Virus record (IMG/VR): IMGVR_UViG_2529293142_000027
Coordinates: 1-22,848 of that record
Length of the DNA: 22,848 nt
Source: a virus
Taxonomy: Duplodnaviria > Heunggongvirae > Uroviricota > Caudoviricetes
Direction: 5' to 3' (one strand)
Shown here: positions 18,601 through 21,600 of the stretch, in pieces
How positions within the stretch are numbered: position 1 is the first letter of the stretch
Layout of the letters: each line of letters begins with the position of its first letter
Made by a program: the position numbers

Positions 18601-21600
18601 CAGGCTGTCAGCGATGGGCCGGGAGGGACTCAACATACTACATGACAGCTTCATTGAACTGATTCAGAAAGACGGTATGCCAGACATGCCGGTTATGCAC
18701 TGAGGTGGACGAAAATGAACATAGTAACGATCAATAACAAACAGCTTCCGGCAGTCGAATATCGCGGTCAGCGTGTTGTGACGCTGGCGATGATTGATGA
18801 AGTCCACCAGCGACCGGAAGGAACCGCGCGTGCAGCATTCAACCGAAACCGTGAGTATTTCATCAGCGGTGTGGATTATGCCGAATTAGGTGCGGACGTA
18901 ATACGTACGGACCTCCCGGAAGGAACATTCTCTAAATTTGCACCATCAGGGATTGTACTTTTTGAAACAGGTTACCTGATGTTGACGAAGCCATTCAATG
19001 ACGCCCTTGCCTGGCAGGTTCAGCGCGAACTAGTTAACAGCTACTTCCGCACTCGCACACCGCTAACGGAAATCGAGATGATCTCTGCGATAGCCGCCGA
19101 CGCTGTTCGTCAACAGAAGCGCCTGAATCATGTGGAAGAACAGCTCGAAACAGTCACAGAAGCGGTGGAAACCATCAAACGCGGAAATATGCGCGCCGGA
19201 TATGTCGGTTATCGCCAGGTGGTCGCCAAAAGCGGAATGACTGATGCTAAGTGCCGCAATCTGGTCAATGCCTACAGCATCCCAACCGATACGCACGAAT
19301 TTATGACGCCAGATGGTCTTCTTTCGCGCCGGGCTATCGTGGAGCTTGAGCCGTTCATGAAAGCATTTCATCAGATGATGTCAGAGGCAGAGCCACGCGG
19401 TACCCGCTGGTATCACCCGAAAATGGGGCTGTTTCAGGTGATTGGTTGGGAGGGTAAATAATGCCACTCATTACACAAAATTTCCGCCTCAATGCGCTGG
19501 CAAATCAGTATGCGGCTGCACTGCACAACCACATATCCGCCACCAACGGAGATCATTTCATGATTAATGTCAATGGGCAATCCATACGAGTAAACATCAT
19601 CGGTGGGGTTAAAGGTATCAGGGATTTAATCGATGGTTATGCTCTGAAGGCTATCAAAGAAAATTACCCCCAATGGGAAGCCGTTGGTATTCAGCTGTTA
19701 AGCAAATGCGTTCGTGGAAACGAGCTGACGCAAAACGGCAAAGAAATCTGGCAGAGCATGGTTAACGACATGAGCGATACCGTTATGGGGAACATGTAAA
19801 TGAAAATCCAATACCAGGACTATGGCGCCGTAGCGAACATCGTGATCACCAGTTCCCGCCTGACATTGCAAAAGTATAACCGCGTTGTTGATGCGGTGCT
19901 GTTTAATGTACAGGGAATCCATGAAAACCGCAGCGGCTTTTTCTGGGTTAAGTCATCGTTGTCAGGAAAAACACTCGACATCCTGCGCGCCTACAAAATC
20001 GTACAGCGGGAGGCAAAGTGATGAAGTCATTCCTCCTGTCCATGCTGTTTAGTCTGCTGCTGGCGTCCGTCGTTTTCGGTACGCTGATTGAATATAAATT
20101 TTTAATGAATTACTGAGGTGCGGGGTGGGCAAGATCAAAAACCCAGTTGTACTTATCCATAAGCGAGAAAATAGTGACTCCTACGCCGTTGCAATCACCT
20201 GCGGTAGCCAGAACTATCACGACGCCGTTCTGATGGCGTCGATGGAACTGGATATGAGTGACGATGATGTCGATACCTGGAGTAAAACAGGCTATTACAT
20301 GGCTGAAGAAATCGAGCGACTGAAACAAGCACTTTCCGCTGCGGAAAATAATCTGATTGATTCCGAATGCCTCGTAGCTGAATTAAGCAAAGCAAAGGAT
20401 CACGCATATGGGCTGGTCGACACATACGACTGGCAACGTCAGCGTCTCCACGCAGCCGCTGAGAAAGTCATCAAATGGTGCAGACAAGAAGCTGAACACC
20501 GTACCGGCGATCCAGAGAAAGCAGAAAACTATGCGTGCGTTAAAGAACTACGCGACGCATTAAATTTTTGCAAAAGTTCTGGAGACATCAAGAAGAAAGG
20601 CCTGACCATCACCCTGCCCGATACCACATCAAAGGCATTCTGGAGCGGTACCGGAAAAAGCGCAAAATTCCATCTGGAAACCTATAAACGCTGGGTGAAA
20701 GAAGCTATCAAACGGGATTGTGTTATTGCCGGGATCGGCGTGGAGGTGAAATGATGAATTGGCCTGAAGCATTCACCGCTGTAGGAGTTGCAATAGCGGT
20801 GGCATTTATTCTGTATTCGCTTTTCCGCTGGGGATAAAGGAATGTTCGCTCTGATTCAACGTGGTCAGATATACACCGATAGTGCTGGCTACCCGATAAA
20901 AATTATTCGCTGCATAAACAACACTGTGTTGTACAGAAGAATGGATGGGAGAACACTGTCGGTAAAAATAAACGATTTTAATGAACTGTTTGAACGAATC
21001 AATCACCAGGAATACCGACAAATTCTGGCAGAAACAGAGCAGGAAGCTCATCTGAAAAAATTACGGGCCATGAAAAGGAAGTAAAGAATGAATAAAACGT
21101 TTGAGCTATGGGTACGCCAGCGTTACGGCAATCGCTATGACCTGACGCGAGATGTTGACGGTTTCTACTGTCGTGAAATTGTGAAACGAATGTTTGAAGT
21201 GTGGTGCCACTGCCGTGGGCTGAGTGTTGTGTGAGGTAATGCATGGGCAATGTGATTCAACTGGCTCCCAATGAATGGGTTTGTGAAAGCGTTCTTATCG
21301 CAATTACCGGGCTCAAACCAGGCACAATTCTCCGAGCCAGGAAAGAATGCTGGATGGTAGGAAGAGAGTATATTCACGTATCACCAGACGGTAATCCAAA
21401 GCCATCCAGCGAATGTATGTATAACAGAAAAGCAATAGATGCCTGGGTCGCTTCAATGAAAAACAAACAACCTAGGTGATTTAATGCCATGAAGTATGTA
21501 AGCTCGTATCGCTCTTGGGCGTCTGGAGGTATCAATGGATAAAGTCAAATATCCAACAGGCGTCGAAAACCACGGTGGCACATTGCGCATCTGGTTTAAT

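What the first reader, a model, noticed from the sequence alone, without database searches (positions are those of the whole stretch)
20021..20837. Two tiny hydrophobic peptides translationally coupled within the early-left operon
A 31-aa and a 28-aa ORF, each starting on the stop codon of the preceding gene and each mostly one hydrophobic helix, flank the 209-aa gene. Peptides like this in early-left operons are often membrane-active host-killing or exclusion factors. They fall below the ORF-track size cutoff.
Basis: inference. Interest (0 to 1): 0.45.

Follow-up and report, generated by a model that had tools for sequence, protein, structure and literature searches.

The report
Two conserved tiny prophage membrane-peptide genes
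Two very short genes (31 and 27-28 codons) in the leftward operon of an E. coli prophage are real and conserved, each encodes one predicted membrane-spanning helix, and standard annotation misses them; what they do is still unknown.

Summary
pep1 (20021-20116, 31 aa) and pep2 (20751/20754-20837, 28/27 aa) each start on the stop codon of the preceding gene, sit behind a GGAGG Shine-Dalgarno, and fill the only two gaps in a tightly packed gene string running to xis/int.

Neither is a chance ORF. Each belongs to a conserved family.
- pep1: 45 distinct DNA versions in Escherichia, Enterobacter, Citrobacter, Pseudocitrobacter and Trabulsiella prophages.
- pep2: present in 1561 of 5426 complete E. 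coli genomes and in Stx phages 933W, VT1/VT2-Sakai and BP-4795.

Length, start and stop-start overlap are kept behind 5 (pep1) or 3 (pep2) unrelated upstream genes. dN/dS is about 0.24-0.28.

Both are predicted single transmembrane helices. There is no match in Pfam, PHROGs, NCBIfam, PADLOC, Rfam or PDB. RefSeq annotates neither in any record examined.

The "host-killing or exclusion factor" function is untested and has no specific support. Conservation sits at the helix ends (pep1 G-x-LIEYKFL tail; pep2 WPE...RWG), which fits interface-specific microproteins better than generic membrane poisons, but this is inference. These are new, uncharacterised members of a known kind (small hydrophobic phage proteins). 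Interest is moderate.

The parts
19800..20021 (+). 73-aa gene (PHROG phrog_1001, function unknown). Its TGA stop (20019-20021) shares its last base with the pep1 start codon.
   Evidence: annotated as a hypothetical protein in phi467 and RefSeq
20008..20013 (+). Shine-Dalgarno GGGAGG for pep1, inside the 3' end of the 73-aa gene, 7 nt before the ATG.
   Evidence: A GGAGG-like or AAGGA motif is conserved at this spacing in the pep1 junctions of related loci.
20021..20116 (+). pep1: 31-aa micro-gene, MKSFLLSMLFSLLLASVVFGTLIEYKFLMNY. It has one predicted transmembrane helix (about residues 5-23) and a conserved C-terminal tail, G-x-L-I-E-Y-K-F-L.
   Evidence: Deposited as hypothetical protein CUW01254.1 in phage phi467.
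20125..20754 (+). 209-aa gene (GTG start here, ATG in relatives; phrog_492, function unknown), flanked by the two micro-genes.
   Evidence: PGAP calls only a C-terminal fragment, as a pseudogene.
20742..20746 (+). Shine-Dalgarno GGAGG for pep2, inside the 3' end of the 209-aa gene. It lies 4 nt before ATG 20751 and 7 nt before ATG 20754.
   Evidence: conserved in the pep2 junctions behind three different upstream genes
20751..20837 (+). pep2: 28-aa micro-gene, MMNWPEAFTAVGVAIAVAFILYSLFRWG (27 aa if started at the conserved ATG 20754). It has one predicted transmembrane helix (about residues 7-25). The family motif is W-P-[ED]-A...G...[YF]-[SA]-x-x-R-W-[GR].
20842..21084 (+). DUF4222 gene, starting 4 nt after the pep2 stop. 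pep2's last codons (TGG GGA) supply GGGGA 7 nt before its ATG. It is the downstream partner of pep2 in 58 of 86 loci.

Best explanation
Both ORFs are genuine protein-coding micro-genes of the prophage's leftward (repressor-to-xis/int, 'exo-xis'-type) operon.

Shown:
- Each is a member of a conserved family.
- Each family moves as its own mosaic module between unrelated neighbouring genes.
- Each always keeps its length, its ATG on the upstream stop codon and an upstream GGAGG.
- Each evolves under purifying selection.

Inferred from the anatomy: they are translated by ribosomes that terminate on the upstream gene and re-initiate, or by direct Shine-Dalgarno-led initiation, so their synthesis follows transcription and translation of the leftward operon.

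Inferred from sequence: each product inserts into the inner membrane as one helix.
- pep1 would sit N-in/C-out (Lys2 inside), displaying its invariant amphipathic tail G-x-LIEYKFL at the periplasmic face.
- pep2 would sit N-out/C-in, with W-P-E at the outer interface and Y-S-x-x-R-W at the inner one.

Most likely function (speculative): like other bacterial single-pass microproteins, they act through their conserved interfacial motifs on a host inner-membrane protein or complex. They would thereby adjust host physiology during prophage induction or lytic growth, rather than acting as non-specific membrane-breaking killers.

My estimates: real genes about 0.85; membrane-inserted about 0.7; specific host-protein modulators about 0.35.
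For: Fit to the operon: the two ORFs exactly fill the only gaps (103 and 87 nt) in a gene string whose other junctions from 18715 to 21479 are 0-11 nt.

pep1 family:
- 36 distinct peptides and 45 distinct DNA sequences, all 31-34 aa.
- The start overlaps the upstream stop in 81 of 82 loci: ATGA in 71 and TGATG in 10.
- It lies behind 5 unrelated upstream gene families and before 8 downstream ones.
- Diverged copies were also found by DNA similarity alone.
- A word-free phmmer search of 1.84 billion proteins also found relatives, which keep [LV][IV]EYKFL.

pep2 family:
- 11 distinct peptides, including those of 933W, ArgO145, WGPS2 and PhiR12_1.
- It overlaps the end of the upstream gene in 85 of 86 loci, behind 3 upstream gene families.
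- Its DNA is present in 1561 of 5426 complete E. coli genomes.

Selection: dN/dS is 0.24 (pep1) and 0.28 (pep2) in the ORF frame, against 0.5-8 in the other + frames. In pep2's C-terminal 11 codons, which the search patterns did not constrain, it is 0.23.

Translation signals: GGAGG-type motifs are conserved 5-9 nt upstream in all contexts.

Helix: one transmembrane segment is predicted and AlphaFold2 gives single helices.

Where conservation sits: at the helix ends and at one glycine, not in the hydrophobic core.

Independence from neighbours: more distant phrog_1001 genes lack pep1, so the peptide is not a subunit of its neighbour.
Against: - There is no expression data. The Sakai Ribo-seq supplement holds neither peptide sequence.
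- No target is known and no homology to any characterised protein was found.
- Conservation shows no one-sided helical periodicity that would mark a packing face (P = 0.41 and 0.69).
- For pep2, the mirror antisense frame has the same dN/dS (0.27). The substitution pattern therefore does not by itself pick the strand.
- For pep1's mid-helix segment, dN/dS (0.39) is no better than in the +1 frame (0.42).
- The related loci were found with peptide patterns and tblastn, which biases them towards conserved protein sequence.
- Part of pep2's C-terminal conservation could reflect the Shine-Dalgarno of the next gene.
- A few natural copies are broken or fused.
Confidence: 0.5

Rival explanations
1. 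One reading: the peptides are membrane-active toxins or exclusion factors. They would depolarise or permeabilise the host inner membrane (like Hok, TisB or small holin-like peptides) or block superinfecting phage DNA entry (like T4 Imm or HK97 gp15).
For: - Each is a short single hydrophobic helix.
- They sit in a region rich in host-directed accessory genes.
- In 933W-type phages pep2 lies about 150 nt upstream of the hokW/sokW toxin locus.
- A ParE-like toxin-domain gene is in the same operon.
Against: - There is no match to Hok/Gef, Ldr, TisB, Ibs, holin, Sie or any PADLOC defence model.
- There is no antisense RNA and no own promoter.
- The ORFs carry a strong Shine-Dalgarno and are directly coupled to ordinary operon genes, unlike tightly silenced type I toxins.
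- Exclusion factors normally need expression in the lysogen, which is not evident here.
- Up to 7 copies per genome, with few inactivated copies, argues weakly against strong toxicity.
- Conservation lies at the interfacial ends rather than at polar pore-lining positions.
Confidence: 0.2
2. The ORFs are translated, but the peptide itself is unimportant. They would serve as relay or spacer ORFs that keep ribosomes on the mRNA across mosaic gene junctions. This would prevent Rho-dependent polarity and set translation of the next gene by coupling.
For: - pep1 is coupled on both sides in nearly all loci: the start sits on the upstream stop, and the next gene starts between 4 nt before and 11 nt after the pep1 stop in 81 of 82 loci.
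- pep2's last codons carry the GGGGA that serves the DUF4222 start.
- The hydrophobic core tolerates many substitutions.
Against: - Amino-acid-level constraint is present: dN/dS 0.24-0.28, with invariant LIEYKFL, W-P, G and R-W.
- The same peptide is retained between many different neighbour pairs, although neighbouring genes in these operons couple directly (ATGA) without any spacer.
- pep2 is kept even where no gene follows within about 150 nt.
Confidence: 0.12
3. pep1 is not a membrane anchor but a Sec-exported pre-peptide. The variable N-terminal part would be a signal peptide cleaved after V-F-G, releasing the invariant 11-13-residue tail ([AT]LIEYKFLMNY) into the periplasm or medium.
For: - The conservation pattern resembles a pre-peptide: a Lys n-region, a variable hydrophobic region, an invariant Gly with Val at -3, then an invariant tail.
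- A bulk catalogue of enterobacterial intergenic micro-ORFs flags a family member as SIGNAL_PEPTIDE and non-TM (PMC11188072, supplementary file 3).
Against: - The hydrophobic stretch is 17-19 residues with no polar or helix-breaking c-region.
- AlphaFold2 models one uninterrupted helix, residues 2-30.
- No signal-peptide predictor could be run here.
- No conserved receptor or processing gene lies nearby, since the neighbours vary.
Confidence: 0.06
4. The ORFs are not genes. They would be chance open frames in intergenic spacers. Alternatively the conserved DNA would serve an antisense gene, an RNA element, or a frameshift extension of the upstream protein.
For: - They are very short, and RefSeq/PGAP annotates neither in any record examined.
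- The antisense mirror frame of pep2 is open in 31 of 31 versions and has an equal dN/dS.
- Occasional in-frame fusions with the upstream gene exist (L067, P0051).
Against: - The estimated chance is about 1.7% per gap, even before conservation is considered.
- The frame, length, ATG and Shine-Dalgarno are conserved across 45 and 31 distinct sequences and several gene contexts.
- The antisense ORF has no conserved start or extent: 76 aa in JLK-2012, 25 aa in BP-4795, and none spanning pep2 in the window.
- There is no Rfam match and no unusual folding, with z-scores of -1.2 and -0.6.
- The in-frame stop upstream of pep2 lies 0-39 codons away, and is immediately adjacent in 15 loci, which rules out a conserved frameshift fusion.
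Confidence: 0.04

Closest known systems
Bacterial single-pass inner-membrane microproteins that modulate larger membrane proteins (e.g. AcrZ-AcrB, MgtS-MgtA, MgrB-PhoQ, KdpF, CydX). This comparison rests on my own knowledge of that literature.
   Same: They are under 50 aa, have one hydrophobic helix with short tails and conserved interfacial residues, and are frequently missed by annotation.
   Different: No sequence similarity: the Pfam and NCBIfam models for these families gave no hit. pep1 and pep2 are encoded by prophages, embedded in a phage operon by stop-start overlap, and have no known partner.
Type I toxins Hok/Gef (hokW/sokW of phage 933W), Ldr, TisB, Ibs and ShoB
   Same: They are small hydrophobic single-helix peptides found in E. 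coli prophages. In 933W-type phages pep2 lies about 150 nt upstream of hokW.
   Different: There is no match to the family models. There is no antisense RNA and no structured leader. pep1 and pep2 are coupled to upstream genes behind a strong Shine-Dalgarno instead of being translationally silenced. Toxicity is untested.
Phage superinfection-exclusion membrane proteins (T4 Imm, HK97 gp15, lambda SieB, P22 SieA). This comparison rests on my own knowledge.
   Same: They are phage-encoded, membrane-located accessory proteins.
   Different: Those proteins are larger (about 80-190 aa or more) and mostly multi-pass or expressed in the lysogen. No PHROG or PADLOC similarity was found. No lysogen-active promoter is evident in front of pep1 or pep2.
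Intergenic micro-ORF ('ismORF') families catalogued in Enterobacteriaceae (Fesenko, Sahakyan, Shabalina and Koonin, 'The Cryptic Bacterial Microproteome', PMC11188072)
   Same: A pep1 family member (MKPFLLSMLFGLLLVAVVFGALIEYKFLMNY, Citrobacter, cluster Citrobacter_76875) is listed there. Like most entries in that catalogue, it is hydrophobic and of unknown function.
   Different: That is a bulk listing only, with no function and no phage context. pep2 was not found in the part of the supplement that is held.
Characterised genes of the lambda / Phi24B exo-xis region (orf60a, orf63, orf61, orf73, ea22, ea8.5; PMC4195576)
   Same: They occupy the same genomic neighbourhood: between the recombination/accessory genes and xis-int, transcribed leftwards. 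In other phages pep2 follows Ea22-like, EaA or DUF551 genes.
   Different: Those are soluble proteins of 60-180 aa. The micro-ORFs are not among the genes named in that work.

Membership tests
Type I toxin (Hok/Gef, Ldr, TisB, Ibs, ShoB) | Sequence match to a family model | tested here: not met
   Pfam and NCBIfam scans at E up to 1 gave no toxin family. The only hits were sub-threshold: DUF883_C glycine zipper (E = 0.07), B12D and Prli42.
Type I toxin (Hok/Gef, Ldr, TisB, Ibs, ShoB) | Cis- or trans-encoded antisense RNA antitoxin, with own promoter and structured leader | tested here: not met
   There is no Rfam match in 19500-21600 apart from a chance RsmY hit (E = 0.24). No promoter-like site lies on the + strand between 16282 and the window end. 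Folding z-scores are -1.2 and -0.6. The ORFs start on the upstream stop codon.
Type I toxin (Hok/Gef, Ldr, TisB, Ibs, ShoB) | Growth arrest or membrane depolarisation on expression | not testable with these tools
   This needs inducible expression in E. coli.
Holin / pinholin | Location in the lysis cassette next to an endolysin; usually 60-150 aa with one to three or more transmembrane segments | tested here: not met
   Both ORFs lie in the leftward operon next to xis/int, not in a lysis cassette. They are 27-31 aa. No PHROG holin hit was found.
Superinfection exclusion / anti-phage defence proteins | Match to a known exclusion or defence model | tested here: not met
   PADLOC and PHROGs gave no hits at E up to 1, apart from phrog_35838 (unknown function, E = 0.085).
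Superinfection exclusion / anti-phage defence proteins | Expression in the lysogen and protection against incoming phage | not testable with these tools
   No own promoter was seen. Read-through from the repressor gene at 16309 cannot be excluded.
Single-pass membrane microprotein (general class, under 50 aa) | One hydrophobic segment long enough to span the membrane, with short flanks | tested here: met
   The best 19-residue windows are 5-23 (pep1, -1.9 kcal/mol) and 7-25 (pep2, -0.9 kcal/mol). AlphaFold2 gives single helices with pLDDT 96.8 and 89.3.
Single-pass membrane microprotein (general class, under 50 aa) | Evidence that the ORF is a real gene (conservation, purifying selection, translation signals) | tested here: met
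   Translation itself was not measured.
Secreted pre-peptide / phage peptide signal (arbitrium AimP-like) | Cleavable signal peptide, plus an adjacent cognate receptor gene, plus phage-specific variation of the mature peptide | tested here: not met
   The neighbours vary and no receptor gene is conserved. The tail is invariant across phages rather than phage-specific. Cleavage itself is not testable here.
Programmed-frameshift C-terminal extension of the upstream protein | Open overlap between frames, with a conserved slippery site upstream of the junction | tested here: not met
   An in-frame stop lies 0-39 codons upstream of pep2 (immediately adjacent in 15 loci) and 1-47 codons upstream of pep1. 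The upstream genes are unrelated to each other.

The most novel reading that the evidence does not exclude
pep1 is a Sec-exported pre-peptide. Its invariant 11-13-residue C-terminal part ([AT]LIEYKFLMNY) would be released outside the cytoplasm of induced enterobacterial lysogens and act as a diffusible or periplasmic peptide effector or signal. That would be a Gram-negative counterpart of phage peptide signalling. pep2 would be a separate phage microprotein that docks onto a host inner-membrane machine. The evidence leaves this open because the conservation pattern (variable hydrophobic N-part, invariant Gly, invariant tail) fits a pre-peptide as well as an anchor. However, there is no receptor gene, no phage-specific variation of the tail and no polar cleavage region.
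Probability: 0.04. Interest if true: 0.8.

Novelty: new member of a known kind. Interest (0 to 1): 0.38.

Why it matters
Both micro-genes are invisible to standard annotation. PGAP lists neither in any RefSeq record examined. Even so, pep2-family DNA is in 29% of complete E. coli genomes, with up to 7 copies per genome. It is also in medically important Shiga-toxin phages (933W, VT1/VT2-Sakai, BP-4795). pep1 is spread over at least five enterobacterial genera.

They add two well-supported families to the very small set of conserved phage single-pass microproteins. They sit in the exo-xis type region, whose accessory genes are known to influence prophage induction. If they act on host membrane proteins, they would be compact handles on host physiology during induction of Stx prophages. 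If they do nothing beyond coupling, they are still a clean example of how mosaic phage operons keep translation continuous.

At present the value is mainly correct annotation and a well-defined experimental target, not a new mechanism.

Tried and rejected
I used tblastn, pattern-based locus searches and one phmmer run instead.
- A hairpin pairing pep1's Shine-Dalgarno (GGGAGG) with codons 5-7 (CCUCCU) looked like an obligatory-coupling device. Synonymous recodings of the same peptides pair the Shine-Dalgarno/AUG region just as well (mean 0.61 against 0.61; no locus below 5%). It is therefore a by-product of pyrimidine-rich hydrophobic codons. pep2 gave the same result.
- I tested for a conserved helix-packing face using the helical moment of conservation. 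It was not significant for either peptide.
- An antisense gene under pep2 was rejected: its dN/dS is equal by the mirror effect, but its start and extent are not conserved.
- A programmed frameshift fusion with DUF551 was suggested by odd clustering with 121-aa DUF551 proteins and by 'DUF551, partial' names. Those 121-aa proteins do not contain the peptide, and in-frame stops lie next to the start in many loci.
- No RNA element was found: no Rfam family and no unusual stability.
- Searches of solved structures found nothing usable.
- Literature string searches for WPEAF and LIEYKFL found nothing relevant in main texts. The Sakai Ribo-seq supplement has no match.
- A broader pep2 alignment was too variable for a genome-contig scan.
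- Linkage of pep1 to the phrog_1001 gene was rejected. Distant phrog_1001 genes in Phi24B and a Klebsiella phage are followed directly by other genes.
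Full report
**1. What is in the sequence**

The finding's coordinates hold.
- The 73-aa gene 19800-20021 ends with TGA at 20019-20021.
- The A of that stop is the first base of an ATG (20021) that opens a 31-codon ORF, pep1: MKSFLLSMLFSLLLASVVFGTLIEYKFLMNY, with its stop at 20114-20116.
- Eight bases later the 209-aa gene starts with GTG (20125) and runs to TGA at 20752-20754.
- Two in-frame ATGs straddle that stop. ATG 20751 makes an ATGA overlap and gives 28 aa. ATG 20754 makes a TGATG overlap and gives 27 aa.
- This ORF, pep2 (MMNWPEAFTAVGVAIAVAFILYSLFRWG), stops at 20835-20837, four bases before the DUF4222 gene (20842-21084).
- GGGAGG (20008-20013) lies 7 nt before the pep1 ATG. GGAGG (20742-20746) lies 4 nt and 7 nt before the two pep2 ATGs.
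- Once the two ORFs are counted, every junction from 18715 to 21479 is 0-11 nt.

A simulation with local base composition gives about 1.7% per gap for a stop-overlapping ATG ORF that fills the gap. Hydrophobicity alone is not exceptional for pep2.

**2. Context**

The window carries a prophage.
- A divergent pair of HTH genes sits at 16309-16764 (+) and 15406-15645 (-). The first matches repressor/CII-like PHROGs and Pfam HTH_3. The second is Cro-like.
- From there a co-directional + strand operon runs on. It contains an ORF6N/antirepressor gene (18715-19461), a ParE-like domain gene (17870-18091), the genes of this finding, a DUF1233 excisionase (21243-21479) and a tyrosine integrase (21535 to the window end).
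- The replication helicase lies on the other strand.
- No + strand promoter-like site occurs between 16282 and the window end.

'Leftward operon ending in xis-int' is therefore correct. That it is 'early' transcription is inference. The closest records are phage phi467 (LN997803) and a prophage of E. coli 2015C-4136CT1, both 99.5% identical. phi467's depositors annotated pep1 (CUW01254.1) but not pep2. PGAP annotates neither, and calls only a fragment of the 209-aa gene, as a pseudogene.

**3. Both peptides belong to conserved families**

*pep2.* tblastn against phage records finds the identical peptide in JLK-2012, BP-4795, YYZ-2008, VT1-Sakai and several Stx1a phages. It finds 48-70% identical versions in the following:

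| Phage | Peptide |
|---|---|
| 933W / VT2-Sakai / Min27 | MTWPEAFANVGTVMAVVLVVYSICRWR |
| ArgO145 | MTWPEAFTTVGIAMAVALVVYSICRWG |
| WGPS2 | MTWPDAFAIVGVAMSIALIVFAICRWG |
| PhiR12_1 | MSWPDAIVTLGMVFAAAFVVYSICRWG |

- The upstream gene differs: the 209-aa gene here, DUF551 genes of 196-248 aa, and a 933W p77-type gene. Even so, the peptide start sits on or within the end of that gene in 85 of 86 loci: a 4-nt overlap in 62, 1 nt in 8 and 17 nt in 15.
- Downstream is DUF4222 at +4 nt in 58 loci, hok/mok about 150 nt away in 13, and otherwise nothing obvious.
- DNA of this family occurs in 1561 of 5426 complete E. coli genomes. There are 2953 places, up to 7 per genome, and 115 of them are on plasmids. 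No separate gene appears in the annotation rows shown.

*pep1.* This family is rarer.
- It is found in 11 complete E. coli genomes at high identity. Diverged copies were found by DNA similarity behind a completely different upstream gene: MMKPFIFSIIVSMLLAATVIGALIEYKFLVK.
- A pattern search of IMG/VR gave 78 loci with 36 distinct peptides and 45 distinct DNA sequences, all 31-34 aa.
- The start overlaps the upstream stop in 81 of 82 loci.
- The next gene starts between 4 nt before and 11 nt after the pep1 stop in 81 of 82 loci.
- There are 5 unrelated upstream and 8 downstream gene families.
- Species representatives with the gene include Citrobacter, Pseudocitrobacter, Enterobacter and Trabulsiella. 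Exact-sequence look-ups add Enterobacter hormaechei, E. asburiae and E. cloacae, and show hundreds of contigs.
- A word-free phmmer search of 1.84 billion representative proteins found only five relatives. All are tiny proteins or a read-through fusion, and all keep [LV][IV]EYKFL.

The two peptides co-occur only in the phi467-like lineage: eight contig names are shared between the lists. Otherwise they travel independently. More distant relatives of the 73-aa gene, in Phi24B and a Klebsiella phage, have no pep1 after them.

**4. Coding evidence**

| Measure | pep1 | pep2 |
|---|---|---|
| Variable sites at codon positions 1 / 2 / 3 | 21 / 14 / 25 | 10 / 5 / 18 |
| dN/dS, ORF frame | 0.24 | 0.28 |
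| dN/dS, other + frames | 0.53 and 3.4 | 0.78 and 8.2 |

Caveats I checked:
- The loci were selected with peptide patterns. In segments outside those patterns, pep2's tail still gives 0.23. pep1's mid-helix gives 0.39, no better than the +1 frame at 0.42.
- pep2's mirror antisense frame gives 0.27. The strand is therefore decided by the conserved ATG, the Shine-Dalgarno, the stop and the operon direction, and by the lack of any conserved antisense start or extent.
- Broken copies are rare. POCJ13 has TGG to TAG, 689R5 has a 1-nt deletion, and one locus each shows a fusion to the upstream gene.

**5. What the products look like**

Each has one hydrophobic stretch long enough to span a membrane.
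- pep1: residues 5-23, summed Hessa scale -1.9 kcal/mol.
- pep2: residues 7-25, -0.9 kcal/mol. Relatives range from -2.6 to +1.6.
- AlphaFold2 without an alignment gives single helices: pep1 residues 2-30 at pLDDT 96.8, and pep2 W4-R26 at pLDDT 89.3.

By the positive-inside rule (inference), pep1 (Lys2; tail EYKFLMNY) would be N-in/C-out. pep2 (N-terminal WPE; C-terminal RWG) would be N-out/C-in.

Conservation is concentrated at the ends.
- In pep1 the N-terminal hydrophobic part varies freely, while G-x-L-I-E-Y-K-F-L is invariant.
- In pep2, W-P-[ED]-A, one central Gly, [YF]-[SA] and R-W are fixed.
- There is no significant one-face periodicity.

**6. Comparison with known families**

- There are no significant hits in Pfam, PHROGs, NCBIfam, PADLOC, Rfam or PDB sequences.
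- The peptides therefore fail the testable membership criteria for type I toxins, holins, exclusion or defence proteins, AimP-like signals and frameshift extensions (see the membership table).
- They fit only the general class of single-pass microproteins.
- A pep1 relative is listed, without function, in the enterobacterial intergenic micro-ORF catalogue of Fesenko et al. (PMC11188072, supplementary file 3).
- The exo-xis literature I could read (PMC4195576) and a review of phage small proteins (PMC11323111) do not mention them.

**7. Most likely mechanism and its status**

- Shown: these are conserved, selected, independently mobile micro-genes with canonical translation signals and stop-start overlap.
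- Inferred: translation is coupled to the upstream gene, so the product appears whenever the leftward operon is expressed, and each product inserts into the inner membrane as one helix.
- Speculative: they act through their conserved interfacial motifs on a host membrane protein.

A pure 'relay ORF' role is unlikely given the constraint at the amino-acid level. A cleaved secreted peptide from pep1 is a low-probability but interesting alternative.

**8. Verdict**

The functional part is unproven. These are new, uncharacterised members of a known kind. pep2 is notable mainly for being widespread and systematically unannotated, including in Stx phages. Interest is 0.38.

Noticed in passing
window 17228-17326 (+): A 32-aa ORF (MKNRNAYKTALLMANAGYWSVAILFLRKAYGK) ends 4 nt before the 119-aa gene at 17330. 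It lies in the only large gap (17146-17329) of the leftward operon and may be a third unannotated micro-ORF.
   Followed up: no
window 17870-18091 (+): A gene with a ParE-like toxin domain (Pfam PF24732, E = 1e-19) lies inside the leftward operon. It overlaps the end of the 69-aa gene 17689-17898, and no obvious antitoxin was identified.
   Followed up: no
window 20125-20754 (+); L002 3297-3455; L012 1666-2295: The 209-aa gene starts with GTG in the window but with ATG in a 96% identical relative. PGAP annotates only its last 52 codons, as a pseudogene fragment, although the full ORF is intact and matches phrog_492.
   Followed up: partly
window 20743-20758; L010 about 1457-1472; L011 about 1458-1473: The same stop/start cassette, GGTGAAATGATGAA, precedes pep2 in the window and pep1 in other E. 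coli prophages, behind unrelated upstream genes. It may be a shared ribosome-binding/junction cassette or a recombination joint.
   Followed up: partly
L174 (Shigella phage POCJ13) 1201-1209; L008 (phage 689R5) about 1499-1581; L067; protein P0051: Natural variants of the micro-genes exist. pep2 has a premature stop (TGG to TAG) in POCJ13 and a 1-nt deletion in 689R5. pep2 is fused in frame to a 210-codon upstream ORF in one IMG/VR contig. One protein is a read-through fusion of a 73-aa-gene relative with pep1.
   Followed up: partly
window 20830-20844 (+): pep2's last two sense codons (TGG GGA) form GGGGA 7 nt before the DUF4222 ATG. Part of the 'RWG' conservation may therefore serve translation of the next gene. 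However, RWG is also kept where no gene follows.
   Followed up: partly
L005 (phage 933W) 1501-1950: In 933W-type Stx phages the pep2 homologue sits between the p77 gene and the sokW/hokW type I toxin-antitoxin locus, about 150 nt upstream of mokW.
   Followed up: partly
E. coli complete genomes: 115 of the 2953 pep2-family matches lie on plasmids, possibly phage-plasmids. tblastn also hit a record labelled Actinobacillus phage vB_Apl-pPE4 at 67% identity, which looks out of place for an enterobacterial family.
   Followed up: no
window 345-437 (+): A 30-aa ORF, MVAAYIAFTMALCSCVFCSVSSIFICSITL, is the most hydrophobic short ORF in the window (GRAVY 2.03). It is antisense to the 312-aa gene 251-1189 (-) and is probably a chance ORF.
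   Followed up: no
protein clusters: Contig-edge fragments in the pep2 reading frame (e.g. GGESMTWPEAF...) are named 'DUF551 domain-containing protein, partial' in NCBI. They are clustered with 121-aa DUF551 proteins that do not contain the peptide, so this is an annotation and clustering artefact.
   Followed up: yes
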